This document shows positions 7,521-61,404 of a DNA stretch of 64,000 bases, piece after piece. Source of the stretch: Alphaproteobacteria bacterium (lineage in GTDB: Bacteria; Pseudomonadota; Alphaproteobacteria; Rs-D84); NCBI GenBank assembly GCA_017962125.1, contig JAGCVZ010000011.1:182255-246254 (forward strand), in the 5' to 3' direction. A program made the position numbers and the translations under genes. Below the pieces are notes generated by a model. The model made no database searches. It was not told the DNA's origin and saw nothing but the letters and a program-made list of their open reading frames with translations. The stretch's first letter is position 1, and each line of letters opens with the position of its first letter.

Positions 7521-10283
7521 ATGCTAACACTGATTGATGGGAATTCGATTTTATTTCGTGCTTACTATGGTGTGCACAGTCGTCTTACACGCGCCGATGG
7601 CACCCCAACCGGTGCAGTATTTGCATTTTTTAACATGATGTTACCGGTATTTGCTGCGGCAAAACCTGACGATATTTTCGTATGTGTGTTCGACGCATCA
7701 CGACAAACTTTCCGTCAGAAAATATACCCAGAATACAAAGCAAACCGAACAGAAACCCCCGCCGATTTGATTTCCCAGGCATTATTGGTTCAACGCGGGC
7801 TCGGTGAAATGGGCGTACCAGTTCTTTGCGTACCTGGTGTAGAGGCCGATGATGTCATCGCAACCATTGCAACAAAAAACTGTCAAATTGCGGAAAAAAC
7901 ACGAATCATGACTGGCGATAAAGATTTAATGCAGTTAGTTTCTGATTGTGTTTTTCTTTATGATGGAATGAAACAACGGCGCATTGAACGTGCCGAAGTC
8001 ATTGAAAAATTTGGTGTTCCGCCTGAACGCGTTATTGATGTTCAATCACTCATGGGCGATTCGTCTGATAACGTTCCAGGTGTTCATGGAATTGGCCCTA
8101 AAAAAGCCGCAGAACTTATCAATGAATTTGGTTCACTTGATGAACTTTACTCGCATTTAAGCGACATAAAAAATGAGCGCACTCGGAAATTACTTTCCGA
8201 ATCGCGTGATTCCGCATATATATCGCGCGAACTTGTAACATTAAAACGTGATGTCGATTTATCAGGATTAAAATTGGGGCCACTACATTTCAATCGGGCA
8301 GCCGCATTAGAATTTGTTCAAAAAGAAATAGAAAGCAATTCGCTGTATGAAAAAATTTCAAAGTTGTTTACGGAAACCGCGACCACACCAACAAAATTTG
8401 AATTTCCAAATTCTGTATGTCCCACAGATACGCCTGCGCCAGAAGACAAGCCAAAACCAGAATCAAAAATGACATTTGCAAAAATAACCACTTTAACGGA
8501 ATTGGAAAAATTCTTGTCTGGGGTTCGTGATGTTATCGCACTGGATACCGAAACCACAGGACTTGACCAAACGACTGCAAAAATGGTTGGAATGTCACTT
8601 GCGATTGACCCCATGCACGGCGTTTATATTCCATTGCGCCACCGCACGACAGCGGGCGATTTGTTTGGTGGTGATGCTGTCGCACCAGGGCAAATTTCAA
8701 TCAAGGATTTGTATAAAAAAATCTGGCCAATTTTAACGGACAAAAAAGTTACTAAGGTTGGTCATAACATAAAGTTCGACCTGCACATTATGGCAAATGA
8801 AGGTTGGGATATTACAAAAATCACACCGATTGACGACACAATGTTGCTGTCATATGCATTACACGGAACATTGCACTCTCACAGCATGGACGAATTGGCA
8901 CTAAGATATTTAAATCACCAAGATATAACTTTCGCATCGTTATTTCCGCCAAAGACACGCGATGCAGATATGCGTTTTGATGAATTACCAATCGACACCG
9001 CTTATCCATACGCTGCCGAAGATGCCGCCATCACGATGGCACTGTATAAACTTATGCGACCGCAACTTGATGCGAACGAAAAACTTCATGAATTGTATGA
9101 AAAATGTGACCGACCACTATTGATAGTTCTGACACAGATGGAACAATGGGGCGTATTGGTGAACAAAAGCAAATTGTTACAACTGTCCGGCGTATTTCAT
9201 GAACAACTTACAAACATAAGTGGTGAAATCTTCGAACTTGCAGGGCATGAATTTAATATCGCAAGTCCGAAACAACTTGCGACCATCCTGTTCGACGAAT
9301 TGCATTTGCCGGGAAACAAAAAACGTTCCACTGATGCGGATTCACTAAACGATTTAATCGAACACCACGAAATCATCGAAAAGATTTTGAATTGGCGTTC
9401 GATTGCGAAACTTGCAGGGACATATGCGGATGCCCTGCCCCGCCAAATTGGTGATGACGGACGTATTCACACAACATATTTGCAAACGAGTACGAATACA
9501 GGCCGTCTGTCCAGTCGCGATCCAAACCTGCAAAACATTCCGGTAAAAACCGAACTTGGAGAAGAAATCCGTAAGTGTTTCGTTGCCGGACCGGGCAAAA
9601 AACTTATTGCGGTCGATTATTCACAAATTCAATTACGCTTGCTTGCGGACGTTGCGAACATAAAAACGTTCAAGGATACATTTATCGCGGGCGCGGACAT
9701 TCACGAACAAACCGCGCGGAAAATCTTTAACATTCCACAAACGACCATAGTTCCGCGTGACCTGCGGCGCGCAGCAAAGACGGTGAACTTTTCTATTATA
9801 TATGGAATTTCATCAATCGGTCTTGCGGCCCAGTTAAATGTTTCGCGCGCGCAGGCGGCGGACATAATAAATTCGTACATGTCGGGGTTACCGGAAATAA
9901 AAAAATATATCGATGATACCAAAGAATTCGCGCGCAAAAACGCATGTGTTTACACACCATGGGGGCGCCGCATCGAATTACCAGAGGTAAAAAATTCCCG
10001 CATGCGTGCATATGCTATGCGTGCTGCAATCAACGCCCCGATTCAGGGGTATGAGGCCGATTTAATGCGTCGCGCGATGGTGGACATTTATAACAAAATC
10101 GTTGTTCCGAACGTCGACAAAATAAAACTTATCATGCAGGTTCACGATGAAATGGTCTTTGAATGTGATGAAGGATCTGCGGAAAGTTTCGCCGAACAAA
10201 TCAAAAACATTATGGAAAACGTAACAAAGATATCTGTACCGCTGCGTGCCGATTATGTCATCGCACCATTTTGGGGAAAGTAA
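7521..10283 (+). CDS. polA: DNA polymerase I
   Basis: 920 aa. Domains recognised: 5'-3' exonuclease N-terminus, 3'-5' exonuclease, and the polymerase motifs DYSQIQLRLLA and QVHDEMVFE. Confidence 0.9.
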   Translation: MLTLIDGNSILFRAYYGVHSRLTRADGTPTGAVFAFFNMMLPVFAAAKPDDIFVCVFDASRQTFRQKIYPEYKANRTETPADLISQALLVQRGLGEMGVPVLCVPGVEADDVIATIATKNCQIAEKTRIMTGDKDLMQLVSDCVFLYDGMKQRRIERAEVIEKFGVPPERVIDVQSLMGDSSDNVPGVHGIGPKKAAELINEFGSLDELYSHLSDIKNERTRKLLSESRDSAYISRELVTLKRDVDLSGLKLGPLHFNRAAALEFVQKEIESNSLYEKISKLFTETATTPTKFEFPNSVCPTDTPAPEDKPKPESKMTFAKITTLTELEKFLSGVRDVIALDTETTGLDQTTAKMVGMSLAIDPMHGVYIPLRHRTTAGDLFGGDAVAPGQISIKDLYKKIWPILTDKKVTKVGHNIKFDLHIMANEGWDITKITPIDDTMLLSYALHGTLHSHSMDELALRYLNHQDITFASLFPPKTRDADMRFDELPIDTAYPYAAEDAAITMALYKLMRPQLDANEKLHELYEKCDRPLLIVLTQMEQWGVLVNKSKLLQLSGVFHEQLTNISGEIFELAGHEFNIASPKQLATILFDELHLPGNKKRSTDADSLNDLIEHHEIIEKILNWRSIAKLAGTYADALPRQIGDDGRIHTTYLQTSTNTGRLSSRDPNLQNIPVKTELGEEIRKCFVAGPGKKLIAVDYSQIQLRLLADVANIKTFKDTFIAGADIHEQTARKIFNIPQTTIVPRDLRRAAKTVNFSIIYGISSIGLAAQLNVSRAQAADIINSYMSGLPEIKKYIDDTKEFARKNACVYTPWGRRIELPEVKNSRMRAYAMRAAINAPIQGYEADLMRRAMVDIYNKIVVPNVDKIKLIMQVHDEMVFECDEGSAESFAEQIKNIMENVTKISVPLRADYVIAPFWGK

Positions 10284-30615: not shown

Positions 30616-31056
30616 TTACTCGACCAGATTGCCAAATATAGCGGTGCGAAGGCCAAGGTTCGACCCAAGGTTATTACTGCATTTTTGTGCACACCCACTT
30701 GAACAAGAGTTACCCGGATAACCATTCCCTATCCAGATAGATTCCACAGGATGCAACATTTTACAAAAGCAATAAGTCTTTTGCGTCTGATTCATAAGAC
30801 AATCTTGGCTCGTTGGTACAACCCCAGGCGCACTTGAGGTGTTTTGACCACAGGCATAACTACATATAGAAATCCCACTTACAATCCCGTAACTAAACTG
30901 TGTGGACCATGTGTTGTTGGTTGCATCACTTGACAAGCCTGTCCCGCTAATTTGCGGGTCCAAGACGACCATAATACTGCCGTCTTTTACGCACATGTTT
31001 TCCCCATATGCAATAATTGGTAAAATCATAAATAATAATATAATTATTCTTTTCAT
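30616..31056 (-). CDS. small secreted cysteine-rich protein (trio member 1)
   Basis: ORF trimmed to the ATG at 31056 (MKRIIILLFMILPIIAYG). 10 Cys. C-terminal ..LRTAIFGNLVE. Confidence 0.55.
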   Translation of the reverse strand: MKRIIILLFMILPIIAYGENMCVKDGSIMVVLDPQISGTGLSSDATNNTWSTQFSYGIVSGISICSYACGQNTSSAPGVVPTSQDCLMNQTQKTYCFCKMLHPVESIWIGNGYPGNSCSSGCAQKCSNNLGSNLGLRTAIFGNLVE

Positions 31057-31076
31057 TTTATTTCCCTTTTTCCTTT

Positions 31077-31526
31077 TTACCACACGCCCCCAAACATCGC
31101 CGTCCGGAATGCCGTCGATGTTTGAACTTTTTCCCCACACTTATCCGCACAATTCAACGCGCATGTCGCGGTATCCGCGTAATCTTTGTGTGCCAACACA
31201 GAATAAGACACCAATGGTTTCCGCATCACACACCAACAATATGGTCCAGATTCTTCACCCCCAGTTATACCTACCGTTGTATCCACTGTATCGATTGCAT
31301 TACTCGCACCAACTTCGGCACATCCCGCATAGCCACTAACATACGGTGTATTCGAACTTGATGTGTTATAACCCATAGTTACCGTCCATGCGCCGTTATT
31401 CCCCGTCGTATGCGATACACCATTGTCGTATATTGATAAACTTGCTACATACGAACCCGTATGAACGCACATGCTCGTCGCATTCGCCATCATCGGCAAC
31501 ATTATCAACGCAAGTATTGTCTTCAC
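31077..31526 (-). CDS. small secreted cysteine-rich protein (trio member 2, paralog of member 1)
   Basis: GTG start overlapping the upstream stop (TAGTG), with a G-run RBS. Shares ..MCV..G.., CxC..P and ..FRTAMFGG with member 1. Confidence 0.5.
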   Translation of the reverse strand: MKTILALIMLPMMANATSMCVHTGSYVASLSIYDNGVSHTTGNNGAWTVTMGYNTSSSNTPYVSGYAGCAEVGASNAIDTVDTTVGITGGEESGPYCWCVMRKPLVSYSVLAHKDYADTATCALNCADKCGEKVQTSTAFRTAMFGGVW

Positions 31527-32341
31527 TATTCCCCCCCATAGTATGTTTGATTATTATATTTCAGATTTATCGTCCCATGCCGCGACCCGTTACCAAGGTT
31601 CACATAACATACATCCCCATTCGCAAACCTTATGTTAATAGACGGAATCGTCGCTCGTTCGCGATATAACGGTAACGCAACACCATTTGATGCGTGCAAT
31701 ACAGTCCCCCCAGATGTACATGCAAGTTGCGGTGTACAAAAGTCCGACATGTTACTAAACCCAAGATACACACGACAATAATCCGCATCTCCATATAATG
31801 AATAGTTCGTCGGGCATTCATCATTCGCATTTGCACGGACAAACGCCATACTGGGAACCGGCGCAAAAAAATTATCTGGACAATTTTCAACCGGATTAGA
31901 CGAACAACCTGATACCGTCGGATATTCCCCAGAACCACATGTTGTCGCACTGCTAACTATTAAATATGCAACATTGCGAGTCGTTTGTTGCGCCTGGTAT
32001 CCCGTATAGCATGTTCCTCCTAATGGTTGAACCACCATAGATGAATTTGTGGTCGCATCGTGAAACCCGGCCGCACAATTACCAACCGTATCGTTTACAC
32101 ATGTACCGTTTGACATATGTTGACCCGTTGGGCATACAATACCACTGGCCTGTGAGACGAATCGAAAATTCCCAATGTTACCTGTATATATTTCATAGCC
32201 GGAATAGCATCTCCCTCCACGTGGGGCAACGGTGCTGGTCGAACTTATCCCCGATGACACAGTCCACCCGTTACCACAGGTTTCATCCGCCATTACCGGT
32301 AACCCAAACACAAATACAAAAATGTAACAAACTTTCTTCAA
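31526..32341 (-). CDS. secreted cysteine-rich protein (271 aa, trio member 3)
   Basis: TTG start with a GAGGGG RBS. Signal peptide. 20 Cys in a T/S/G-rich sequence. Confidence 0.5.
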   Translation of the reverse strand: MKKVCYIFVFVFGLPVMADETCGNGWTVSSGISSTSTVAPRGGRCYSGYEIYTGNIGNFRFVSQASGIVCPTGQHMSNGTCVNDTVGNCAAGFHDATTNSSMVVQPLGGTCYTGYQAQQTTRNVAYLIVSSATTCGSGEYPTVSGCSSNPVENCPDNFFAPVPSMAFVRANANDECPTNYSLYGDADYCRVYLGFSNMSDFCTPQLACTSGGTVLHASNGVALPLYRERATIPSINIRFANGDVCYVNLGNGSRHGTINLKYNNQTYYGGE

Positions 32342-32388
32342 TTTGCCCCTCGCAATATAAAAAATTTAAACCGCCAAACGGAAATGAC

Positions 32389-32461
32389 GGTCGGGGTGTT
32401 CGAAAATCAAATCTGCTATGACTCCCGTAACATTTAGATATACGCCACAGGCACCCCGACC
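32389..32461. repeat. conserved 74-nt stem-loop element, copy B (GGTCGGGGTG...GATATAC...CACCCCGACC)
   Basis: Same terminal 10-bp complementary arms and spacing as 43896..43969. Loop contains GATATAC in both. Confidence 0.5.
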
Positions 32462-32672
32462 AATGATCGAGGCATAAAACATAATGACGGCACAAAACAT
32501 CGGAAAATAATAGATTACGACAATTCTGTGCCGGCAGATTTGGGCCTTCGACAGCCCCAAAACGAATTCCCATTCGCTTCGAAAAGTATGCTACTAAAAG
32601 GCACCACCAAAAGCAAGCAAAAACGGCGCCCTTGTTTTTTGAAAAAAATAAGTTATAATAATCCTACGTCAC

Positions 32673-32749
32673 GTGCCCATGGCTCAATTGGATAGAGCAA
32701 TTGCCTTCTAAGCAATAGGTTGCAGGTTCGAGTCCTGCTGGGCACGCCA
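32673..32749 (+). tRNA. tRNA-Arg (anticodon TCT)
   Basis: Acceptor GTGCCCA/TGGGCAC, anticodon stem ATTGC/GCAAT with loop CTTCTAA, T-arm GCAGG-TTCGAGT-CCTGC, encoded CCA. Confidence 0.85.
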
Positions 32750-32755
32750 AAAATT
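32733..32755 (+). repeat. 23-bp direct repeat copy 1 (3' end of tRNA-Arg, TCCTGCTGGGCACGCCAAAAATT)
   Basis: Repeated exactly at 32967..32989. Attachment-site-like duplication. Confidence 0.75.
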
Positions 32756-32966
32756 CAACTCGACCTTTTTGGTCGGTTTTAATTTTTGTTGCGTAACCAA
32801 AGGACGAGAACCCAGGTTCGAAAACAAGTAGATTTTGCAAATGTAATGCAGCAAAATCGTCACGGTTTGCGCGCAGTGTCGGCAAAGCCGACCAAGCGAC
32901 CCGATAGTTGATGAGAACGAGTGTAAACGAAGTTCGAATCTTACGTGTGGTGAGCATAGCGAACAA

Positions 32967-32989
32967 TCCTGCTGGGCACGCCAAAAATT
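32967..32989 (+). repeat. 23-bp direct repeat copy 2 (att-like)
   Basis: Identical to 32733..32755. The ~210 bp between copies contains tRNA T-loop-like fragments (GGTTCGAAAAC, GTTCGAATC). Confidence 0.75.
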
Positions 32990-33010
32990 TAAATCTGTTG
33001 CGATTGCAAC

Positions 33011-33034
33011 CGGTTTAACCACTAACACTAATCA
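33011..33034 (-). repeat. solo stop-motif terminus (TGA-TTAGTGTTAGTGGTTA) of the IR-element family at the mscS stop
   Basis: On the minus strand the mscS stop TGA is the first triplet of TGATTAGTGTTAGTGGTTA. Confidence 0.5.
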
Positions 33035-33922
33035 CTTTTTAACATGCACATCCACTTGCGGAAAAGGAAAGTGAATCTTCTTTTTCGGCAGTTTATTGTA
33101 TATCGCTTCTAACATATCGCCTCGACTAGGGATCATATCGTTCGCTGATGTCCAATAGCGCACTGTAAGTACAACCGCACTATCCCCTAAATCAGAAACA
33201 AAAACATTTGGAGCTGGATCTTTTAAAACACGTTTATCCGCCTTGATTATCGCCAGTATCTCTTTACGCGCTACATCAACACTGTCGCCATAAGAAATTG
33301 CAACCGATAGTTCCGCGCGCCGCGTTTCATTTCCCGAAAGGTTTGTTATCTGACTATTGGACAGCGCACCGTTCGGCAACAAAACAACCTGGTTATCAAA
33401 AGTATGAATTTCAGTTGTAAAAATCATAATCTTTTTAACAATCCCAGTTTTGCCATCAGATGTTGAAATAATGTCACCAACCTTGAACGGTTTTAGAAAC
33501 ATAATGATAATTCCGCCGGCAAAATTCTGCATTGTTCCGGACAATGCCATACCAACCGCCAACGAAGCCGCACCAATAACAGCAACAATAGATGTCATTT
33601 GAACGCCAACGGTCGCAAGTGATATAATAACTACGAATATCCGCAAAAGTATATTCACAAACGAACCTAAAAAAGTAACAAGCGATGCATCTGATCCGCG
33701 CCGTTCTAACATACGTTTGAAAGATTTCGCAAGACGCTTTGCTATCCACATTCCACCCATCAAAACAACAAGTGCCGCAAGCAACTTTAAACTAAAATCC
33801 ACCGCCATGCTCGTCAGTGATGAAATCAAAGTTTTTAATTCCTCTGCGCTGGCTTGAACCTTTTCTGGCACAGTCTGTATCGCATCAACCGCATTACCAA
33901 CAACACTATCAACAACTTCCAT
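33032..33922 (-). CDS. mscS: small-conductance mechanosensitive channel MscS
   Basis: 296 aa. TM helices, then the conserved beta-domain region (..GDIISTSDGKTGIVKKIMIFTTEIHTFDNQVVLLPNGAL..). Confidence 0.8.
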   Translation of the reverse strand: MEVVDSVVGNAVDAIQTVPEKVQASAEELKTLISSLTSMAVDFSLKLLAALVVLMGGMWIAKRLAKSFKRMLERRGSDASLVTFLGSFVNILLRIFVVIISLATVGVQMTSIVAVIGAASLAVGMALSGTMQNFAGGIIIMFLKPFKVGDIISTSDGKTGIVKKIMIFTTEIHTFDNQVVLLPNGALSNSQITNLSGNETRRAELSVAISYGDSVDVARKEILAIIKADKRVLKDPAPNVFVSDLGDSAVVLTVRYWTSANDMIPSRGDMLEAIYNKLPKKKIHFPFPQVDVHVKK

Positions 33923-33937
33923 TATTTTCCCTTTTGA

Positions 33938-36514
33938 TTACATTTGCATATCTTCACACTTTTCAACCGGGTCAGACTCAGTACAATTAACTTCGTCCTT
34001 TTGTCCTATACCCAAGAATCCATTTTTATGCACTGTATTGCAACTCTTGGTCACCGTCGAAGAACAAAGCCGACATATACGCGTTTCACGATTAAATGTT
34101 GACCACATTTGGCGCGTGCCACCTGGGATATTATATGCACTTTTATTACCGGCACCAGACAAGGCATATACACCTTCACTTGCGCCAAGCGATACAGCCG
34201 CCGACAAACCACGCATAACCTTATCGCCCACACCTTTGCCATAACCCGCTCTCTCGTTACTCACACTGCCCATACCACTTGTTGCGGACGTACCATGACC
34301 ACCCTGGGCAAGCAATCTATTATCCAACCCCACCCCTACTTCATAACTAATCGCGTATGGTGGCGCAAGATTTACCTGTTGTTCTTGTACTGCCTTTCCA
34401 CCAAAAATTCCACGTGAAAAAGGCAACATTTGGCAATTATATTGTGCAATGTCAACCTCTGCATCTCGGCTTGCCTTGGCAACATATTCATCGAATTTAG
34501 CTCTCTGATTCTCTGATGCTTTATTCAACGCCGCACTTGTGATTTTGCCCAAATACTGATTTAACAAATTCGGGAAACGCGCCACAGTGGATGTACCAGT
34601 ATCACCTGTTATCTGATCCAAACTACGCCCTGTTACACAGAACTGAATTTTTGGATCCAATTCAATCATATCTATCACACGATTTATTTTCTCTGCAACA
34701 CTGTTCAACTCCATTTCTATAGATGCCAAAATACCTTCTGAATCCTTAACGCCATCATTTACCTCTCTAGCACGCGCCATATAATCTTTGACACCAACTT
34801 TACCAAGGCCAAGCTTCTTACCCCCATCTTTCTTGGTGCTACCATCGCCGACGTTCAGCATATCAAACGAAATCATCCCAGTAATACGATATACATTACC
34901 ATCTTTCACACTGCGCAAACTGCCTGTGCCAATTGTTTCATCAGATGCCCAACGATTGCAATCGGTTGTAGAACCACAAATTTCCATCATTTTATCTTCG
35001 ACAACTTTCTGACAATTTTCTAATGCTTTGTTATCCATATTCAGATAAAGCCCCATTATCATGGAATCAATATCTTCCATCTTGAAGTTTTTATTATTCG
35101 CCTTGCAAACCACAAGTTTATCAAGTGGACAAAGATTATGAACAAATTCCCAATCCATACCTATACAATTCATAAAATCAGGTCCACAACGATCTTCGGA
35201 ATAAATACAATCTTTAACCTCCTGGGTGCACGCATCAACACGCATCGCCGCTAACTTGTCTTTTACATATCCCCAAATCAGTGGTTCCATACGTTCACAC
35301 GGATCAAGTTGAACCTTGCAAAACGATCTCGCCATATCAGGTCGTGATAAACACGAATCCATTGTCGCCTTGCCCTTGCCCACAATATCATCTTTGCAAG
35401 CCGTTTGAATACATTTCGTAATATCCGTTAAACAAGATTGCCGCACATTGGATTCTGCACGCAATTCTGCAAGTTTCAAACTTGGGGCAACTTCACGTAA
35501 AAACGCAGTCCAAACATTATTACGTACCGCCATACATTGGTCCAAAACTCGTTCACAAATTGTTCGTTTTGATTCAAGCCGTTCCAACACTGACGGTGTT
35601 ATATCGTAAGCAACGGTTGTACTTACCTTGGTCCCGGCGGTACTAGTTGCGGTCTTGTTTTGCATATTTTCATTTGCAATTATGGAAACACAATTTACCC
35701 AATCATCCCCGCAAGCATCAGCGCCAAGCATACAGTTTTTCAATTCAACCATGCATTCACCCTGATTGAATTTATTAGATGAATCAAAACTTTCTTTTAA
35801 CGCGGTTCTAACATCGGATTCTGCCGAATTCATTGCGGATTTCGCCGCAGCACGTTGTTCGGCAATACTATTTGCAAACCCACGACAATCCGATTCTATC
35901 TGACGTTGATAAATCTGTTTTAACAATTTTATATCTTTAACACACGATGAACCCAACTGATCTCGACATGTATCATCCGCAACTTTGAACAGTTCCGCCC
36001 CAGTCTTGTGCATAATATCATCATCGTCTTCTTCGTCATCTTCTTCGCTTAAATTTGTTTCAAACATCTTCATCAAACTTTCACGTTTCGATTTTCTCTT
36101 ATCCGCCGCGGTCATCTCTCCGACTTTGATAACATTTCCTTTTTCGTCATATTTGCGTTCACCCGTAAAGACAATATCTGCATTTGCACCAAGTTTTATT
36201 TTTTCTACCTCTACCGTTTTTACACGATCGGCCTCGGCTAACATTTCGTTTATTTCTTCAAGTTCGGCTTCATACTTTGTATTACTGTTACTACACAGAC
36301 AACTGCCCCCATTTATATTTTCCGACATACAAAATTGATCCATACAACCATAGTATTCATCATAGCATTCCTGAGAATAAATGCCCTTGGCCGCAACCCG
36401 CGCACGAACATTTGTCCCATTTTGAATTGCTGATTGTTTCTTTGCTGTTGCCGCAACCGCAACAACCGGTATAATCAATAACGCTGATAAAAAGGCAATT
36501 TTTTTCATTTTCAT
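33938..36514 (-). CDS. large secreted cysteine-rich protein, paralog P3
   Basis: 858 aa. Signal peptide, then CYDEYYGCMDQFCMSENINGGSCLCS, an acidic DDEEDDDD run, ICERVLDQCMAVRNNVW, and a C-terminal ..CTESDPVEKCEDMQM. Confidence 0.7.
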   Translation of the reverse strand: MKMKKIAFLSALLIIPVVAVAATAKKQSAIQNGTNVRARVAAKGIYSQECYDEYYGCMDQFCMSENINGGSCLCSNSNTKYEAELEEINEMLAEADRVKTVEVEKIKLGANADIVFTGERKYDEKGNVIKVGEMTAADKRKSKRESLMKMFETNLSEEDDEEDDDDIMHKTGAELFKVADDTCRDQLGSSCVKDIKLLKQIYQRQIESDCRGFANSIAEQRAAAKSAMNSAESDVRTALKESFDSSNKFNQGECMVELKNCMLGADACGDDWVNCVSIIANENMQNKTATSTAGTKVSTTVAYDITPSVLERLESKRTICERVLDQCMAVRNNVWTAFLREVAPSLKLAELRAESNVRQSCLTDITKCIQTACKDDIVGKGKATMDSCLSRPDMARSFCKVQLDPCERMEPLIWGYVKDKLAAMRVDACTQEVKDCIYSEDRCGPDFMNCIGMDWEFVHNLCPLDKLVVCKANNKNFKMEDIDSMIMGLYLNMDNKALENCQKVVEDKMMEICGSTTDCNRWASDETIGTGSLRSVKDGNVYRITGMISFDMLNVGDGSTKKDGGKKLGLGKVGVKDYMARAREVNDGVKDSEGILASIEMELNSVAEKINRVIDMIELDPKIQFCVTGRSLDQITGDTGTSTVARFPNLLNQYLGKITSAALNKASENQRAKFDEYVAKASRDAEVDIAQYNCQMLPFSRGIFGGKAVQEQQVNLAPPYAISYEVGVGLDNRLLAQGGHGTSATSGMGSVSNERAGYGKGVGDKVMRGLSAAVSLGASEGVYALSGAGNKSAYNIPGGTRQMWSTFNRETRICRLCSSTVTKSCNTVHKNGFLGIGQKDEVNCTESDPVEKCEDMQM

Positions 36515-36515
36515 C

Positions 36516-38666
36516 CTACATATTTACATCTTCACAAGATTCTATTTCCTGGCAGAAAGTTTCTTGACCGCCCGATGCGTAACCCATTGCACCAAAAGCA
36601 GCCGCACCAACAAGTGCCCCAATCGCAGTTCCCCAACCAGCACTTACCATGGTTCCCGCAGATGCTCCGGTTGATAAACCGCCAGCCGCAGCCTTTAACA
36701 TCGAGGTAGATTTCTTTTCGCCCCCAACTTCACAAACGCGTTGCATACGGCATACATGGCAATTACGTAATGAAGGTTCAAAAGAAACACTCTTTATATA
36801 AGAGTAAGACGTTTTTTCATCTTTTTCTTCTGCTTTTTTCTTTTCTGGCTTATAAAGTGTCAAACAATTTTCACGTGCTTCTTCCACATCTTGTTGCCGC
36901 GACAATTCCGCCACACGCGATTCCAAATCGGTAAGATAGCGATTTTCTGCGCCATTTTCTGCTATCATTTTTGCCGTCACAAAAATACTATCTTTCAAAC
37001 TTTTCCGACCTGCGGGTTGCTGCGCGCTTTTACATGCATCAACAGTAGCCTCCTTTTCAAACTGCTTAAAGAACTCCTCAACTGCAGTTTTACTTTCATC
37101 TTTCACTCTCTGACGCAAATCAGTCTTTCCAGATTCAGTACTAGGTAATTTAGTTAAAGTTTCTACAATATCACTCTTTGGTAAACAATTCATATCTGTT
37201 CCACAAATACGTCCCAGCATATCATCGTAATAGTTAATACAGCCTTGCATCATTTGATAATTCATCTGCAACAGCACAGAACTTACAATAACATCATAAA
37301 ATTTTTCACTTTTGCACGAAGGAAACATATCTTGGGGGCAAAGATCGACAATTTCTTGCGCGTTTTTCCCAAGGCACTGCGGTCCTGTGAAATTTTCACC
37401 ACATTTATTGCGCAAACATTTATCAACATCCGACTGACAAAAATCTGTCCGCAATGCCACCAACTTTTCGTTCCAACTCTGTTTAAGCCCCGGAATTTTA
37501 GCATCACATTCGTTTATAATTGGGCACACCCCCGCCGCAACATTTACATTCGTTAAACACCCTGTATCAGTCGACACAGCGCACCCATCTTCTAAACAAG
37601 CACGAATTTTGGCATTGCACGTCAGACGCATATTTCTATCACTATAAACCGCCGCATCGGCAAGAATCATTTTTGCTTCGTCCTTCCAATCATCCAAAAC
37701 GAAAGTTCTAACCGCCATACATTGATCTAAAATATTTTCACACGCATTTGCACGCCGTTCCAAAAGTTTTGCATCTAAACAATTTTCAAACTGAACACCA
37801 CAACCACCCTTGTCGGCAATACATGCGCGATACGCAAGCAAACATTCACCACGATTATACTTATTTGTAGTTCCTAACATATCCAATGTCGCCGACCGCA
37901 CAGCCGCATCCGCCGTCCGCTTGTTGGATTCCGCTGCGCGCTTTTGTTCTGCTAGATACCCAGTAAAAGTTTTACAATCTTTGAGTATTTCGCGCTGATA
38001 AAGTTTTTCTTCCATATCGGCACGTTTATTGTCACATGTTTTTAAAATAAAATCACAAGATTCAGCCGCTATATCATAAAGATTATCACCAATATCAGCA
38101 TCAGCATCCAAACTGGAATTCGTATCGCCATTTATCCATGCAACAAGGTCTATCCCCGTCTTGCGCGAAGATTTTTTTGCTTGGTCACTTTCACCAAATT
38201 TTATAAATTTCGCCTTGGCTCCAAGTTTTTCACGTTCGACCCCTTCTGTATATTGCTTTTCCGCCGCGAGTTCAATATCTTGAATTTCTTTAATTAATTT
38301 TTTTGATTGTTTTATATTGTTCGAACAAGAACAACGCCCCCCTTCGGATTCGTCCAACAAACAAAAATCATCCATACATTCACGATAGGCTTCGCGACAT
38401 TCTTCTGGACTAAGGTTTTCAATATCGTATTCTTCAACTTCCTCAGATGTAACACTAACCTCTTCTACTTCCGCGGGCTCCTCTACTTTTGCCACTGGCG
38501 CGCTTGAACTTTTACTATTCACTAAATTTATATTTTTTGTCTTAACCGCAGGACCAACAGACAACGACGGTCCACGAATGCCCGCCCGATTACCACCATC
38601 GCGCGTTGCCCCAAAACTAACACATGGCAAAAGCGCCAAAATAACAAAGAATATTTTGATTTTCAT
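36516..38666 (-). CDS. large secreted cysteine-rich protein, paralog P4 (tandem with P3)
   Basis: 716 aa. RBS AAGGAAAAA. CREAYRECMDDFCLLDESEGGRCSCS, ACENILDQCMAVRTFVL, a Gly-rich segment near the C-terminus, and ..CQEIESCEDVNM. Stop is 1 nt from the P3 ATG. Confidence 0.7.
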   Translation of the reverse strand: MKIKIFFVILALLPCVSFGATRDGGNRAGIRGPSLSVGPAVKTKNINLVNSKSSSAPVAKVEEPAEVEEVSVTSEEVEEYDIENLSPEECREAYRECMDDFCLLDESEGGRCSCSNNIKQSKKLIKEIQDIELAAEKQYTEGVEREKLGAKAKFIKFGESDQAKKSSRKTGIDLVAWINGDTNSSLDADADIGDNLYDIAAESCDFILKTCDNKRADMEEKLYQREILKDCKTFTGYLAEQKRAAESNKRTADAAVRSATLDMLGTTNKYNRGECLLAYRACIADKGGCGVQFENCLDAKLLERRANACENILDQCMAVRTFVLDDWKDEAKMILADAAVYSDRNMRLTCNAKIRACLEDGCAVSTDTGCLTNVNVAAGVCPIINECDAKIPGLKQSWNEKLVALRTDFCQSDVDKCLRNKCGENFTGPQCLGKNAQEIVDLCPQDMFPSCKSEKFYDVIVSSVLLQMNYQMMQGCINYYDDMLGRICGTDMNCLPKSDIVETLTKLPSTESGKTDLRQRVKDESKTAVEEFFKQFEKEATVDACKSAQQPAGRKSLKDSIFVTAKMIAENGAENRYLTDLESRVAELSRQQDVEEARENCLTLYKPEKKKAEEKDEKTSYSYIKSVSFEPSLRNCHVCRMQRVCEVGGEKKSTSMLKAAAGGLSTGASAGTMVSAGWGTAIGALVGAAAFGAMGYASGGQETFCQEIESCEDVNM

Positions 38667-44022: not shown

Positions 44023-45510
44023 ATGAGAAAGTTCATGATATTCGGGTTGTTCGCGGCATTTATCGGTTTCGCATTCGCCGATGATATTGCCGACAGGCAA
44101 ACAGTAACATCACTAACGTATGTAAATGATGAACTTTCTGAAAAACAAGATATATTCGGTGCGCAATCAGGAACAAAAGTTGCAACTTTTACCAATACCG
44201 CCGGGGAAATCACACCACGCGAAGTAAAATCAGATTTAGGCAATAACACAAACGACACCGCATTACCAACGGTTAGTGCAGTGAATACAGGTTTAGATGC
44301 CACCCAAGATACACTTGGTGCAAACAAACATGCGGATTATGTTGCGACATATACAAATGCGCCGGGTGAATTAGGTGAAAAAGGAATCTATCAAGACAGT
44401 GGCACATACGCCGAACAACAAAATGCACTTGTTGATGCGGGAACATTTAATGCGGCATTACAAAACGGATTGGATAATGAATTTGTTTGTGCCGGCAATG
44501 ACCCCGCAACCGGTAATTGTTGGTTATGGACGACACATAATGGACCGGTGAACTTGTTTAATGGGACCATGTATAAAGGCGGTTTAAATCTCAACGTCTC
44601 GTTTGTAGCTTCCAATTTTAAAAAAATTACTTCGCCATATACCCCAAACTCTGACTTTTATGGTCCAACCTTTTATGCAAGGGTTAAACCAAATACGAAA
44701 TACATGGTAACCATGACCACGAGTGCAAGATATAAATACGTTGCCTATTATTCAAACGAAAGTGATATTACCGATAGAAGTCTGGCATTAGGATATGCCA
44801 ACGTATCTAATAACATGTTCACCACACCATCAGGTGCAAATTACGCTGTTATTAGTTTTACTAATGCCAACACCAATGAAATAACATGGTCAAATGTCGA
44901 GCTCTATGAAATACCTGATTCCATTCTGGTTCCTTATGCATATACCCCGTTGGAATATATAGAAGCAACAAACGAAACCACAACTATTAATTTAGGGCTT
45001 TCCGGAGATATGAATTTTCTGGTTGTAGCACAATCAAGTAGAATAAAAGGCGCTTCACAAACCTTGCTTTCATCTACAAATGGCGGAAACACTAGTACAT
45101 GGTTTGGCGAGGCTACAACTACGCATACTTGGGGCGTGAGCGGTGCTAGCGGCGCTCATGCTATCTATTCAACTGAAAAGATATCTGCTAATATCACATT
45201 TGATTCTTTTGGGGCAAGGGGGACGGTAAATGGGCAAACCATTGTGAGAAATAAAGATACAACACAACAAAATTGGTGTTTGTTTAGTACTTGTATTGGC
45301 TATTATCCGTTTTTAGGCAAAGTTTGGACATTGCGAGCATATCAAAATGGTGTGCTTGTAGGAAATTTTATCCCCGCAAAACGTAATAGCGATAATGAAA
45401 TTGGTATGTACGATACAGTATCGGGCACGTTTAAAACTAACACTGGCACCGGAACACTTATCGCCGGGCCAGAGATAAGTAATAATGTTTACCTGCCCCA
45501 GAATCAGTGA
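44023..45510 (+). CDS. secreted Cys-poor T/N/S/G-rich beta-rich protein (adhesin- or fibre-like)
   Basis: ATG at 44023 with RBS AGGGGGAGGA and signal peptide MRKFMIFGLFAAFIGFAFA. About 495 aa with only 3 Cys. C-terminal ..GMYDTVSGTFKTNTGTGTLIAG... Confidence 0.6.
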   Translation: MRKFMIFGLFAAFIGFAFADDIADRQTVTSLTYVNDELSEKQDIFGAQSGTKVATFTNTAGEITPREVKSDLGNNTNDTALPTVSAVNTGLDATQDTLGANKHADYVATYTNAPGELGEKGIYQDSGTYAEQQNALVDAGTFNAALQNGLDNEFVCAGNDPATGNCWLWTTHNGPVNLFNGTMYKGGLNLNVSFVASNFKKITSPYTPNSDFYGPTFYARVKPNTKYMVTMTTSARYKYVAYYSNESDITDRSLALGYANVSNNMFTTPSGANYAVISFTNANTNEITWSNVELYEIPDSILVPYAYTPLEYIEATNETTTINLGLSGDMNFLVVAQSSRIKGASQTLLSSTNGGNTSTWFGEATTTHTWGVSGASGAHAIYSTEKISANITFDSFGARGTVNGQTIVRNKDTTQQNWCLFSTCIGYYPFLGKVWTLRAYQNGVLVGNFIPAKRNSDNEIGMYDTVSGTFKTNTGTGTLIAGPEISNNVYLPQNQ

Positions 45511-45596
45511 TTAGTGGTTAGTATTTTGTCTTTTTGCGGAAACGCGGGGCATTTGCCCCGCGCATTAACACTTATCACTTACACTAACCACTATTA
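45507..45596. repeat. IR-bounded GC-hairpin element between convergent genes (stop-motif family)
   Basis: Left arm GTGATTAGTGGTTAGTA includes the TGA stop of the 44023 gene. Centre CGCGGGGC-ATTT-GCCCCGCG. Right arm ACTTACACTAACCACTATTA includes the TAA stop of the minus-strand ygiW-like gene. Confidence 0.6.
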
Positions 45597-58152: not shown

Positions 58153-58345
58153 TGGAAAGTGTTAGTGTAAGTGGTTAGTAATTTCTGGAATTATTTCATA
58201 ATTGTGAAATTATTCTGGAAAACAAAGTTCCCCTCTGGAAATCACCCACAAAAAATGTTGCACTTTTTTTGCGGGAACCGGTATAGGGGTGCCGCGGCAC
58301 CGCTTTGTGGTGACGGGCGGGGTGTCGCCCACTAACACTTTCCAC
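58150..58345. repeat. IR-bounded GC-rich element (MITE/REP-like), stop-motif family
   Basis: Perfect 16-bp terminal inverted repeats GTGGAAAGTGTTAGTG (58152-58167) and CACTAACACTTTCCAC (58330-58345). Left end begins with the motB-like stop TAG (TAGTGGAAAGTGTTAGTGTAAGTGGTTAGTAA). Core has GGTGCCGC-GGCACC and the AAAGTTCCCCTC block. Confidence 0.6.
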
Positions 58346-61159: not shown

Positions 61160-61404
61160 TTCCAAATAATTCCAGAGACTAAAGTTCCCCTCCTGCGGAG
61201 GGGTGCTGGGTAGCACCCGGCGGGGTGGTCTTTTACAAACAATTTGAAAATTCAAACGACCACCTCCCCCTTCGGGTACTCCTCCACAGGAGGAGAACTT
61301 TGCACTCTGCCCCCGCGGAGATACCGCTTTTCAACGGTATGACGATAAAAAACGGGCACAACCGCGCCCGTTTTCCATCAATCACTAACCACTAACACTC
61401 CCCA
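61160..61404. repeat. composite GC-rich structured element related to the 58150 element, ending in a stop-motif terminus at the pgk stop
   Basis: AATTCCAGAG, the AAAGTTCCCCTCC block, hairpins CCCCTCC-TGC-GGAGGGG, GGTGCT-GGGTA-GCACC, CTCCTCC-ACA-GGAGGAG and ATACCG-CTTTTCAA-CGGTAT. On the minus strand the end reads TAG-TGGGGAGTGTTAGTGGTTAGTGAT, where TAG is the pgk stop. Confidence 0.55.
61351..61375. terminator. bidirectional intrinsic terminator (AACGGGC..GCCCGTT flanked by A6/T4)
   Basis: Within the composite element. T-run follows on the minus strand after pgk. Confidence 0.45.

What the first reader, a model, noticed from the sequence alone, without database searches (positions are those of the whole stretch)
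32673..32989. tRNA-Arg(TCT) 3' end duplicated 234 bp downstream (att-like direct repeat) with tRNA-fragment debris: integration-site scar
TCCTGCTGGGCACGCCAAAAATT (the last 17 nt of the tRNA plus 6 nt of flank) recurs exactly at 32967..32989. The interval contains T-loop-like fragments (CCAGGTTCGAAAAC, GAAGTTCGAATC), and another (GGTGTTCGAAAATC) lies upstream of the tRNA. Direct repeats of a tRNA 3' end are the attL/attR signature of integrase-mediated island insertion. Here the enclosed segment is only ~210 bp, so an element probably integrated here and was later deleted, or the site is a recurrent target. The flanking regions carry accessory-looking cargo: a trio of small Cys-rich secreted genes upstream, and mscS plus the P3/P4 pair downstream.
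Basis: partly seen in the sequence, partly recalled or inferred. Interest (0 to 1): 0.55.

Follow-up and report, generated by a model that had tools for sequence, protein, structure and literature searches.

The report
Conserved structured cassette behind tRNA genes
The repeat of the tRNA-Arg 3' end is real, but the DNA between the copies is not debris: it is one member of an apparently undescribed family of conserved, folded ~115-195-nt modules that sit behind at least nine different tRNA genes in small-genome gut Alphaproteobacteria, each carrying arms copied from its own tRNA.

Summary
Observation confirmed: tRNA-Arg(TCT) lies at 32673-32749, and its last 17 nt plus 6 nt of flank recur exactly at 32967-32989 (0 expected by chance).

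The interpretation as an integration scar with tRNA debris is only partly right. The organism is Candidatus Enterousia (order Rs-D84, genomes under 1 Mb). The 234-bp interval is an intrinsic terminator followed by a structured module.

The same core turns up about 45 times in 115 related loci, always just 3' of a tRNA gene: Arg-TCT, Arg-ACG, Arg-CCG, Glu, Pro, Val, Ser, Leu-CAA and Asp. Each copy sits inside a copy of that tRNA's T-loop and ends with that tRNA's own T-stem, acceptor strand and NCCA. Many copies also carry an inverted copy of the same segment upstream.

The tRNA-sense strand folds into a cloverleaf-like four-way junction. Core helices are 99-100% paired with compensatory changes. 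G.U outnumbers A.C 41 to 1.

The core is 98% identical between two species whose third codon positions are 65% identical. Copies are gained, lost, tandemly repeated and nested at the tRNA 3' repeat.

No integrase, transposase or reverse transcriptase is nearby. There is no Rfam, phage or plasmid match. Mechanism and function remain inferred.

The parts
32632..32659 (+). Probable tRNA promoter: TTGTTT (32632-32637), 16-nt spacer, TATAAT (32654-32659).
   Evidence: Read directly. The block cccTTGTTTTTTgaaaaa..gTTATAAT is conserved upstream of the tRNA in about 25 relatives. The strict consensus scan does not call it, because the -35 matches only 3 of 6.
32673..32749 (+). tRNA-Arg(TCT), intact, with CCA encoded.
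   Evidence: ARAGORN; Rfam RF00005 73.4 bits.
32733..32755 (+). Direct repeat, copy 1: the last 17 nt of the tRNA plus AAAATT.
32749..32787 (+). Intrinsic (bidirectional) terminator hairpin carried at the 5' side of the cassette.
   Evidence: Terminator scan stem 32760-32776 followed by a T run; inverted repeat I5. Relatives have a hairpin of different sequence at the same place.
32791..32812 (+). 5' arm (IR_L): a degenerate inverted copy of tRNA positions about 53-72 (GCGTAACCAAAGGACGAGAACC; the ideal reverse complement is GTGCCCAGCAGGACTCGAACC).
   Evidence: L035 and L009 have GTGCCCA here. The base opposite tRNA position 59 (GGAC) matches this tRNA's G59.
32806..32821 (+). Hairpin hp1 (GAACC/GGTTC) ending in GGTTCGA, a copy of the end of the T-stem 5' strand plus the first T-loop bases.
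   Evidence: (87.5% paired, GC to CG and AU to UG changes).
32822..32899 (+). Extra two-hairpin domain (CORE2). It is present only in the long variants (window, L035, L091). In L093 it occurs alone as the T-loop insert.
32900..32965 (+). Conserved core: helix P-b (A32899 + CCCG, pairing with CGTGT 32944-48), hp2 (32910-32940), CTTACGTGTGGT, and hp3 (32951-32963), ending GCGAACA.
   Evidence: nhmmer E=1.1e-19; 35 invariant columns; RNAalifold and pair counts; 161/164 identical to L035.
32966..32983 (+). 3' arm: the rest of the T-loop, T-stem 3' strand, acceptor 3' strand, discriminator and CCA (ATCCTGCTGGGCACGCCA).
32967..32989 (+). Direct repeat, copy 2.
32991..33016 (.). Resident terminator hairpin between the cassette and the convergent mscS gene. 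In relatives without the cassette, this hairpin follows the tRNA CCA directly.
   Evidence: (L006, L010, L011).
33020..33035 (.). Heptamer array (CACTAAC-like). With an inverted array on the other side in relatives, it brackets the tRNA cassette, which is found in either orientation.

Best explanation
The repeat marks the 3' boundary of a 234-bp cassette (32750-32983) lodged at the 3' end of tRNA-Arg(TCT). The cassette is an intrinsic terminator followed by a structured module of about 195 nt.

The module belongs to a family that sits immediately behind at least nine different tRNA genes in Ca. Enterousia/Rs-D84. Every copy has the same plan:
- an inverted copy of the local tRNA's T-loop, T-stem and acceptor 3' strand;
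- a short hairpin;
- a direct copy of the local T-stem 5' strand plus TTC(G)A;
- a conserved core inserted in the T-loop;
- the local tRNA's last 17-18 nt through NCCA.

On the tRNA-sense strand the module folds into a cloverleaf-like four-way junction. Its closing helix imitates the acceptor/T-arm minihelix of the neighbouring tRNA and leaves NCCA free.

Most likely mode of action (inferred):
- The module is made as RNA by read-through from the tRNA promoter.
- It is trimmed like a tRNA, by RNase P at the 5' end and at CCA at the 3' end.
- The conserved fold is the part under selection, either as a tRNA-mimicking RNA or as the cis-acting signal for the cassette's own copying.
- At the DNA level the cassette is gained, lost, tandemly amplified and nested by recombination in the repeated tRNA 3' segment, using factors encoded elsewhere.

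Shown: anatomy, family membership, fold and covariation, folding strand, conservation above neutral, target-matched arms, and gain/loss/tandem/nested states.

Inferred: transcription, processing, the recombination enzyme, and the cellular role.
For: Family:
- An interior pattern with no tRNA sequence in it found 30 metagenome loci. Each core lies just 3' of a tRNA and ends in that tRNA's own 3' end.
- A profile search adds tRNA-Leu(CAA) and tRNA-Asp copies and further core subfamilies.

Target-matched arms:
- tRNAs with a TTCAAAT loop give TTCA|core and ...ACAAATCC (5 of 5). tRNAs with TTCGAAT or TTCGAGT give TTCGA|core (27 of 27).
- The 5'-arm base opposite position 59 is C for 4 of 5 tabulated G59 tRNAs, plus the window and L035 read directly. 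It is never C with A59 tRNAs.
- The tRNA-Leu 5' arm matches the reverse complement of the tRNA 3' part at 17 of 20 positions.
- Cognate arm/3'-end duplexes average -7.5 kcal/mol against -6.1 for non-cognate pairs. In 9 of 26 modules the cognate duplex beats more than 90% of non-cognate ones.

Fold:
- RNAalifold predicts 18 pairs, 6 with double compensatory changes.
- Across the full 35-pair model, 88% of cells are paired against 81% in shuffles (0 of 500 reach it) and 24-48% when slid. The covariation score is 0.251 against 0.133 (0 of 500).
- Core helices are 99-100% paired.
- The tRNA-Leu module's MFE structure is a clean four-way junction with a 3' ACCA overhang, z=-4.7.

Strand:
- G.U 41 cells against A.C 1, including one invariant G.U.
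- The cassette occurs in both orientations relative to flanking genes but always on the tRNA's strand.

Selection:
- Window versus L035: core 161/164, mscS third codon positions 65%, terminator plus 5' arm 80%.
- At the tRNA-Glu locus the module is kept across species groups with about 62% third-position identity, and hp3 differs by a compensatory pair.
- Host genomes are 0.75-1.0 Mb and about 90% coding (PMC12306168).

Dynamics:
- Exact empty versus occupied sites: L010/L011 versus L009, and L012/L033 versus L035. L006 resembles the window's empty site.
- Tandem arrays: L096, L106, L056, L032, L101.
- Nested cores: L093a versus the window.
- L007's hp2 resembles Pro and Glu modules of other genomes rather than the module at the same site in L009.
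Against: - No promoter-like site lies between the terminator and the module, and a good terminator precedes it. Expression would therefore depend on read-through, and no expression data are available.
- The acceptor-like closing helix is only 58% paired in the alignment. A simple 7-nt cognate versus non-cognate test was not significant (5.4 against 5.2 pairs). In several subfamilies the 5' arm is replaced by an unrelated hairpin.
- No mechanism I know of produces both a direct and an inverted copy of the target around an insert.
- No trans-acting enzyme was identified.
- Copies in the alignment are phylogenetically related, so the shuffle statistics overstate independence.
- High cross-species identity could also come from gene conversion or recent exchange rather than purifying selection.
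Confidence: 0.5

Rival explanations
1. Purely DNA-level, non-autonomous mobile element. The single-stranded DNA form folds so that the 5' arm and 3' arm rebuild a duplex copy of the tRNA-gene end, in the way integron attC sites or the CTX-phage attP fold. A recombinase encoded elsewhere then recombines it with the tRNA gene. The conserved core would be the protein-recognition scaffold, and no RNA product would matter.
For: - Exact presence/absence at the repeated tRNA 3' segment, tandem arrays and nested inserts.
- An imperfect palindrome built from target sequence.
- A strand-specific fold with covariation, which is also the signature of attC sites.
- No promoter.
- Mosaic subfamilies shared between different tRNAs and species.
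Against: - No integrase, HUH transposase or other recombinase in the window or beside any copy.
- Modules occur in both orientations relative to flanking genes, and so relative to the replication fork, which does not fit dependence on the lagging-strand template.
- Retargeting to a new tRNA would create a chimeric, non-functional tRNA unless all three arms change together.
- The core is conserved at orthologous sites well beyond neutral expectation. Inert inserted copies would not need that.
Confidence: 0.27
2. The repeats are the attL/attR scar of a conventional integrase-borne island or prophage that inserted into tRNA-Arg(TCT) and was later almost entirely deleted, leaving about 210 bp of decaying remnant.
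For: - Direct repeats of a tRNA 3' end are the classic by-product of such integrations (10.1101/2020.12.28.424599; 10.1101/2022.07.05.498093).
- The site is a hotspot: relatives carry small cargo islets and rearrangement breakpoints at this tRNA.
Against: - The interval is not decaying. It is 98% identical to L035 while neutral sites are 65% identical.
- It shares 35 invariant columns and covarying helices with copies at 8 other tRNA species.
- The same clean 'cargo-less' structure recurs about 45 times.
- No integrase remnant was found and no matching attP.
Confidence: 0.08
3. A local accident: a tandem duplication of the tRNA 3' end and terminator by slippage, with no wider meaning.
For: Tandem units do arise locally (L106, where the two units are identical).
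Against: The conserved foreign core, the inverted arm, and recurrence at 9 tRNA species in many species.
Confidence: 0.02

Closest known systems
Partial-tRNA direct repeats (attL/attR) left by tyrosine-integrase elements; arrays of partial tRNAs in tycheposon islands of Prochlorococcus
   Same: A copy of the tRNA 3' end lies downstream of an intact tRNA. Insertions recur and nest at the same tRNA, and small cargo islets lacking an integrase sit next to the tRNA.
   Different: Here the DNA between the repeats is a 155-234-bp non-coding cassette with a conserved, covarying fold shared across 9 tRNA species. It also has an inverted copy of the target and a core placed inside a T-loop copy. No integrase is present. 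Integrases of known elements are specific to one tRNA.
REPINs (mobilised by single-copy RAYT transposases) and other MITEs
   Same: Small, non-coding, hairpin-forming, non-autonomous, intergenic, and persisting vertically over long periods with conserved sequence.
   Different: REPIN and MITE arms are specific to the element, not the target, and they are not tied to tRNA 3' ends. The copy number per genome is apparently low here. No RAYT or IS transposase was seen, and the repeat length varies from 17 to at least 55 nt rather than being a fixed target-site duplication.
Folded single-strand recombination sites: integron attC and CTX-phage attP(+)
   Same: An imperfect palindrome whose stem rebuilds a duplex version of the target. 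Structure is conserved more than sequence, with strand specificity and cassette-like arrays next to a fixed site.
   Different: There is no IntI and no dif/Xer context. A large, sequence-conserved core sits at the putative crossover point, and the arms change with the tRNA.
tRNA-like RNAs: acceptor/T-arm minihelix, the tmRNA tRNA-like domain, viral tRNA-like 3' ends
   Same: A closing helix built from acceptor and T-stem sequence with a free 3' NCCA; a four-way junction; a long helix in place of the anticodon arm; a GGUUCGAC motif near the 5' side, as in tmRNA.
   Different: ARAGORN and Rfam do not detect it as tRNA or tmRNA. It has no T-arm, anticodon loop or tag reading frame. It is matched to whichever tRNA lies upstream, not to tRNA-Ala.
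Disrupted tRNA genes of archaea and algae (introns at non-canonical positions including the T-loop; permuted tRNA genes)
   Same: A conserved insert sits at a defined position in the T-loop (or in the D-loop, in the tRNA-Leu(TAG) tails) of a tRNA-derived sequence. Related inserts occur in different tRNAs.
   Different: The interrupted copy is only a 3' fragment plus an inverted arm, not a complete tRNA. An intact tRNA lies upstream. Bacteria lack the bulge-helix-bulge splicing endonuclease, and the junctions do not form that motif.

Membership tests
attL/attR scar of an integrase-mediated island in a tRNA gene | Direct repeat of the tRNA 3' segment bracketing the inserted DNA. | tested here: met
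   23 nt exact, 0 expected by chance. Exact empty and occupied sites in relatives.
attL/attR scar of an integrase-mediated island in a tRNA gene | Integrase gene, or a remnant of one, inside or next to the insert. | tested here: not met
   Pfam on 50 of 60 window ORFs. Tyrosine-recombinase motif screens of the window plus 115 loci returned only false positives such as UvrA.
attL/attR scar of an integrase-mediated island in a tRNA gene | The enclosed DNA is element-specific and, if a remnant, decays neutrally. | tested here: not met
   Core 98% identical against 65% at third codon positions. The same core occurs at 9 tRNA species with covariation.
attL/attR scar of an integrase-mediated island in a tRNA gene | A matching attP in a phage, plasmid or ICE. 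| tested here: inconclusive
   None found in IMG/VR, INPHARED or PLSDB. Phages of this uncultured clade may simply be absent from those collections.
MITE / REPIN-type non-autonomous transposable element | Small, non-coding, and present at several sites with presence/absence polymorphism. | tested here: met
   155-234 bp. About 45 copies in 115 loci, with two different modules in single loci (L105, L087, L098). Empty sites in close relatives.
MITE / REPIN-type non-autonomous transposable element | Element-specific terminal inverted repeats and a fixed-length target-site duplication. | tested here: not met
   The arms copy the local tRNA. Repeat length ranges from 17 nt to at least 55 nt (L107) and about 95 nt (L032).
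MITE / REPIN-type non-autonomous transposable element | A cognate transposase elsewhere in the genome. | not testable with these tools
   Only 64 kb of this genome and flanks of at most 10 kb in relatives are available. None was seen in them.
tRNA / tmRNA / curated RNA families (Rfam 15) | Detected by ARAGORN or by a covariance model. | tested here: not met
   Only the true tRNAs are found. No family matches the module at E of 5 or below or E of 0.1 or below.
tRNA-like RNA (working resemblance, not a curated family) | Four-way junction closed by an acceptor-like helix with a free NCCA. | tested here: inconclusive
   The MFE of the tRNA-Leu module gives exactly this, z=-4.7. Core helices are 99-100% paired, but the closing helix is only 58% paired across the family, and cognate specificity is seen in about a third of copies.
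Folded single-strand recombination site (integron attC / CTX attP type) | Strand-specific folded palindrome rebuilding the target duplex. | tested here: inconclusive
   The strand-specific fold is present. The arm/target complementarity is partial.
Folded single-strand recombination site (integron attC / CTX attP type) | Associated IntI, or use of the Xer/dif system. | tested here: not met
   No IntI-like ORF. The target is a tRNA end, not dif.
Hammerhead ribozyme | Core CUGANGA ... GAAA with a C3-G8 pair and an A15.1-U16.1 pair. | tested here: not met
   The window and L009 hp2 read UUGAUGAG..CGAAU (C3 to U, A15.1 to U). Other subfamilies read UUGGCAAG... No Rfam hit.

The most novel reading that the evidence does not exclude
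These cassettes are a new class of tRNA-parasitic or tRNA-mimicking element. A conserved RNA core builds itself into a copy of the acceptor/T-arm of whichever tRNA gene it follows, making both direct and inverted copies of the target. The product is a tRNA-like cloverleaf ending in that tRNA's own NCCA. It would spread between tRNA genes by a target-copying mechanism not described for any bacterial mobile element, possibly through an RNA or hairpin intermediate acting at the T-loop and D-loop, the tRNA elbow. It persists in genomes under 1 Mb because the RNA does something for the cell or for itself.
Probability: 0.3. Interest if true: 0.9.

Novelty: new variant of a known kind. Interest (0 to 1): 0.7.

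Why it matters
Repeated tRNA 3' ends are routinely read as footprints of integrases. Here the same footprint hides a conserved, folded, tRNA-matched module that recurs behind many tRNA genes, in bacteria whose genomes are otherwise stripped to under 1 Mb.

If the module is an RNA, it is a new family of tRNA mimics, each tied to one tRNA identity. That would bear on tRNA processing, on decoys for tRNA-targeting enzymes, and on how tRNA-like RNAs such as tmRNA arise.

If it is a DNA element, it shows a way of targeting tRNA genes that copies the target in both orientations and needs no element-encoded enzyme.

Either way, it cautions against annotating such repeats as 'integration scars' without comparing relatives.

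Tried and rejected
- tmRNA, including the permuted two-piece alphaproteobacterial form. The 5' GGUUCGAC motif and the 3' acceptor-CCA are reminiscent. However, ARAGORN finds none and Rfam finds none. There is no T-arm or tag frame, and the module is too short.
- Hammerhead ribozyme in hp2. The core does not fit, and it is absent from other subfamilies.
- Group I or group II intron, T-box, or retron ncRNA. There are no Rfam hits, no RT, and the sizes and motifs do not fit.
- Bulge-helix-bulge intron. The junctions do not form the motif.
- IS200/IS605-type or RAYT-type element. No Y1 transposase was seen, there is only one long hairpin rather than two similar subterminal ones, and the arms are target-derived.
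- Phage attP. The 23-mer is absent from IMG/VR and so is the interior pattern. The 17-mer hits are coding-sequence coincidences plus one phage tRNA. The core 16-mer hits are chance. blastn against phages and plasmids matched only terminator-like A/T tracts.
- Integrase by regex and Pfam: nothing.
- Reverse transcriptase by a crude motif-A plus YxDD screen: nothing.
- A simple test of 7-nt acceptor pairing, own versus non-cognate, was not significant. A duplex-energy test over the longer variable arm gave a moderate signal.
- A promoter in front of the module: none.
- Literature searches for tRNA-tail modules, tRNA-like repeats and Enterousia returned nothing describing this family.
Full report
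**1. The observation**

ARAGORN places tRNA-Arg(TCT) at 32673-32749 on the + strand, and Rfam's tRNA model scores 73.4 bits. The 23-mer TCCTGCTGGGCACGCCAAAAATT occurs exactly twice, at 32733-32755 and 32967-32989. No further match appears with up to 3 mismatches, and none appears in 100 dinucleotide-preserving shuffles. The repeat extends to 29 nt at 93% identity.

**2. Setting**

The neighbourhood is housekeeping: SurA, TIM, GrpE, ClpP, ClpX, infA, mscS, TspO, Dus, RodZ, UvrA, Ffh. MscS homologues and 80 related genomic loci identify the organism as Candidatus Enterousia, an uncultured Alphaproteobacterium of animal guts. This clade (order Rs-D84) has genomes of about 0.75-1.0 Mb and about 90% coding density (PMC12306168). 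Eight metagenome contigs of the same strain all carry both repeat copies.

Pfam scans covered 50 of the 60 window ORFs of at least 100 aa. They found no integrase, transposase or reverse transcriptase.

**3. Synteny**

In relatives the order is infA, P716, P858, mscS, tRNA-Arg(TCT), TspO, Dus, RodZ. So mscS and the 'P3/P4' pair are core genes, not cargo. The four small ORFs upstream of the tRNA (30616-32573) are specific to the window's lineage. They lie on the promoter side of the tRNA, outside the repeat.

The tRNA is found in either orientation in closely related species, while mscS and TspO keep theirs. The cassette of promoter, tRNA and terminator is bracketed by inverted arrays of heptamers: (G/A)TTAGTG on one side and CACTAAC on the other. 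These arrays also occur elsewhere in the window.

**4. The duplicate recurs, and the spacer is conserved**

A second copy of the tRNA 3' end lies 153-234 nt downstream of the tRNA in the window and in L007, L009, L021, L027, L032 and L035, in both orientations of the cassette. In L027 the duplicate follows that species' own tRNA sequence variant. The spacers are alignable: a terminator hairpin, then a conserved sequence.

Close relatives give exact empty and occupied sites:
- L010 and L011 read tRNA-CCA|tccgtcttt..., whereas L009 reads tRNA-CCA|cassette-CCA|tccgtcttt....
- L012 and L033 read CCA|cgaattttcatt..., whereas L035 reads CCA|cassette-CCA|cgaattttcatt....
- L006 resembles the window's empty site.

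**5. The family**

I scanned metagenomes with an interior pattern that contains no tRNA sequence, CGATAGTTG-N(15-45)-CTTACGTGTGGT. It returned 30 loci. In each, the core lies just 3' of a tRNA gene and ends with the last 17-18 nt of that tRNA. The tRNAs are Glu(TTC), Pro(CGG), Val(TAC), Arg(ACG), Arg(CCG), Ser(TGA) and further Arg(TCT) variants.

A profile search of all held sequence finds only one copy in the window. It adds diverged copies behind tRNA-Leu(CAA) and tRNA-Asp(GTC). At least three core subfamilies exist, and they are shared between different tRNAs. Tandem arrays occur in L096, L106, L056, L101 and L032.

No Rfam family matches. Nothing comparable is found in IMG/VR, INPHARED phages or PLSDB plasmids.

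**6. Anatomy**

Window coordinates were verified.

| Coordinates | Part |
|---|---|
| 32749-32787 | Terminator hairpin |
| 32791-32812 | 5' arm: a degenerate inverted copy of tRNA positions about 53-72 |
| 32806-32821 | hp1, ending GGTTCGA: a copy of the T-stem 5' end plus the first T-loop bases |
| 32822-32899 | Extra two-hairpin domain, found only in long variants |
| 32900-32965 | Conserved core: P-b, hp2, CTTACGTGTGGT, hp3, ...GCGAACA |
| 32966-32983 | Rest of the T-loop, T-stem 3' strand, acceptor 3' strand, discriminator and CCA |

The arms are copied from the local tRNA:
- tRNAs with a TTCAAAT loop have TTCA|core and ACAAATCC (5 of 5). All others have TTCGA|core (27 of 27).
- The 5'-arm base opposite position 59 is C for 4 of 5 tabulated G59 tRNAs, and also in the window and L035 read directly. 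It is never C with A59 tRNAs.
- T-stem 5' strands such as GAGGG, GCGCG and GTCGG are reproduced.
- In the tRNA-Leu module the 5' arm is GCCCTG-TCGGACGAGAACC, against the reverse complement of the tRNA 3' part, GCCCTGGTCGGACTCGAACC. It matches the 3' strand's complement rather than the tRNA's own 5' strand.

L093 has the extra domain alone as the T-loop insert. The window, L035 and L091 have the extra domain plus the core. Inserts therefore nest at the same ...CGA|A(A)TCC junction.

**7. Fold**

RNAalifold predicts a long irregular hairpin (P-b plus hp2) of 18 pairs, 6 of them with compensatory double changes.

For a full model with 35 pairs (closing helix, hp1, P-b/hp2, hp3), one search gives:
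- 88% of cells paired, against 81% in shuffles (0 of 500 reach the observed value) and 24-48% when partners are slid.
- A covariation score of 0.251 against 0.133 (0 of 500).
- P-b/hp2 and hp3 99-100% paired, hp1 87.5%, and the acceptor-like closing helix only 58%.

Three helices contain tandem G.A/A.G. The tRNA-Leu subfamily replaces those in hp3 with Watson-Crick pairs. G.U outnumbers A.C 41 to 1, with one invariant G.U, so the tRNA-sense strand is the one that folds.

RNAfold of the tRNA-Leu module gives a clean four-way junction with a 10-bp closing stem and a 3' ACCA overhang, z=-4.7. Complementarity between the 5' arm and the cognate 3' arm is moderate across the family. The mean duplex energy is -7.5 kcal/mol against -6.1 for non-cognate pairs, and 9 of 26 beat more than 90% of non-cognates. 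A cruder 7-nt test was negative.

**8. Conservation**

Window versus L035:
- mscS DNA is 83% identical.
- Third codon positions are 65% identical.
- The terminator plus 5' arm is 80% identical.
- The core is 161/164 identical.

At the tRNA-Glu locus, two species groups with about 62% third-position identity keep the module in place with a nearly identical core. Their hp3 differs by a compensatory pair.

At the same time, L007's hp2 resembles Pro and Glu modules of other genomes rather than the module at the same site in L009. This points to replacement or exchange. The core is therefore under constraint, not decaying, while the cassettes turn over.

**9. What it is**

The direct repeat is a by-product of the cassette's design, because its 3' arm copies the tRNA end. 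The 'scar with debris' reading fails on conservation, covariation and recurrence at nine tRNA species. The 'integrase' reading has no support from nearby genes or from attP searches.

I commit to the following, at about 0.5 overall:
- It is a conserved tRNA-tail cassette whose tRNA-sense strand forms a tRNA-like four-way junction, closed by a mimic of the neighbour's acceptor/T-arm.
- It is probably made by terminator read-through and trimmed like a tRNA.
- It is gained, lost, amplified and nested by recombination in the repeated tRNA 3' segment.

That it belongs to this conserved family and is not debris I hold at about 0.9.

The main rival, at about 0.27, is a purely DNA-level element with a folded single-strand attachment site. 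It explains the palindromic arms. It does not explain the lack of replication-strand bias or the conservation at orthologous sites.

**10. Open problems**

- What process yields both inverted and direct copies of the target around a T-loop insert.
- The absence of a promoter.
- The missing enzyme.
- Related oddities in other tRNA tails. tRNA-Leu(TAG) is followed by 5'-truncated tRNA copies with a structured insert in the D-loop. A roughly 70-nt 'S element' directly follows CCA in both tRNA-Glu and tRNA-Leu(CAA) tails.

**Caveats**

- The sequences are phylogenetically related.
- The alignment is MAFFT-based.
- There are no expression data.
- The searchable literature may not include a description of this family.

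Noticed in passing
window 32600-33035; L007, L009-L011, L016, L017, L019, L026, L027, L031, L033, L035 (intergenic mscS-TspO): The tRNA-Arg(TCT) cassette (promoter, tRNA, terminator) is inverted between closely related species while mscS and TspO keep their orientation. Inverted arrays of heptamers ((G/A)TTAGTG on one side, CACTAAC on the other) bracket it, which suggests an invertible segment.
   Followed up: partly
window 45509-45523 and 45569-45583; 58160-58180; 61383-61397: Further arrays of the same heptamer occur in intergenic DNA. One inverted pair flanks a GC-rich hairpin. This looks like a dispersed REP-like repeat of this genome.
   Followed up: no
window 30616-32573 (minus strand): A block of four ORFs with no Pfam match (174, 149, 271 and 96 aa) lies between the tRNA promoter and TspO. 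It is present only in the window's lineage and absent from nearly all 80 related loci.
   Followed up: partly
window 33938-36514 and 36516-38666 (minus strand): Two large paralogous proteins (858 and 716 aa, about 27% identical, no Pfam domain) are conserved next to mscS in essentially all related loci. They are core genes of unknown function.
   Followed up: no
L087 10490-10630; L115 2873-3110: tRNA-Leu(TAG) is followed by one or two 5'-truncated copies of itself. Each has a structured insert of about 42 nt in the D-loop and ends in CCA. This is the same logic as the module, but in the other elbow loop.
   Followed up: no
L087 ~8062-8135, L105, L092, L112 (after tRNA-Glu module); L044 ~8960-8890, L056 (after tRNA-Leu(CAA) module): A conserved element of about 70 nt (CYATGASTAGCRGAGCGATTTATCGCGATGCGTCAGGAATGCCGCGCAGGGCTRTGCCCGAGCGAAACTG) directly follows CCA in the tails of two different tRNAs in different genomes. 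It has no Rfam match.
   Followed up: no
L110 4594-6940; L098 1977-4343: Small cargo islets without an integrase (two HNH-like ORFs; a Fic-family ORF and others) sit between a tRNA, or one module, and a further module. They are flanked by partial copies of the tRNA 3' end.
   Followed up: partly
L089 ~340-430, L115 ~1140-1230; L093 ~3100-3140 (rc): Other short inserts (about 85 nt and about 34 nt) split the acceptor-strand copy at the module's 3' end, with 6-7-nt duplications. So several kinds of mini-insert target the same segment.
   Followed up: no
L101 526-616 (+): A sub-threshold match to Rfam sRNA-Xcc1 (40.5 bits, gathering score 53), an sRNA family known from integron cassettes, lies upstream of a module-bearing tRNA-Arg.
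   Followed up: no
L003, L004 (Logan contigs of the window's strain): Both contigs end inside the tRNA-Arg gene. The likely reason is that the identical tRNA is shared by co-occurring species with different upstream DNA, or that the cassette orientation varies in the population.
   Followed up: no
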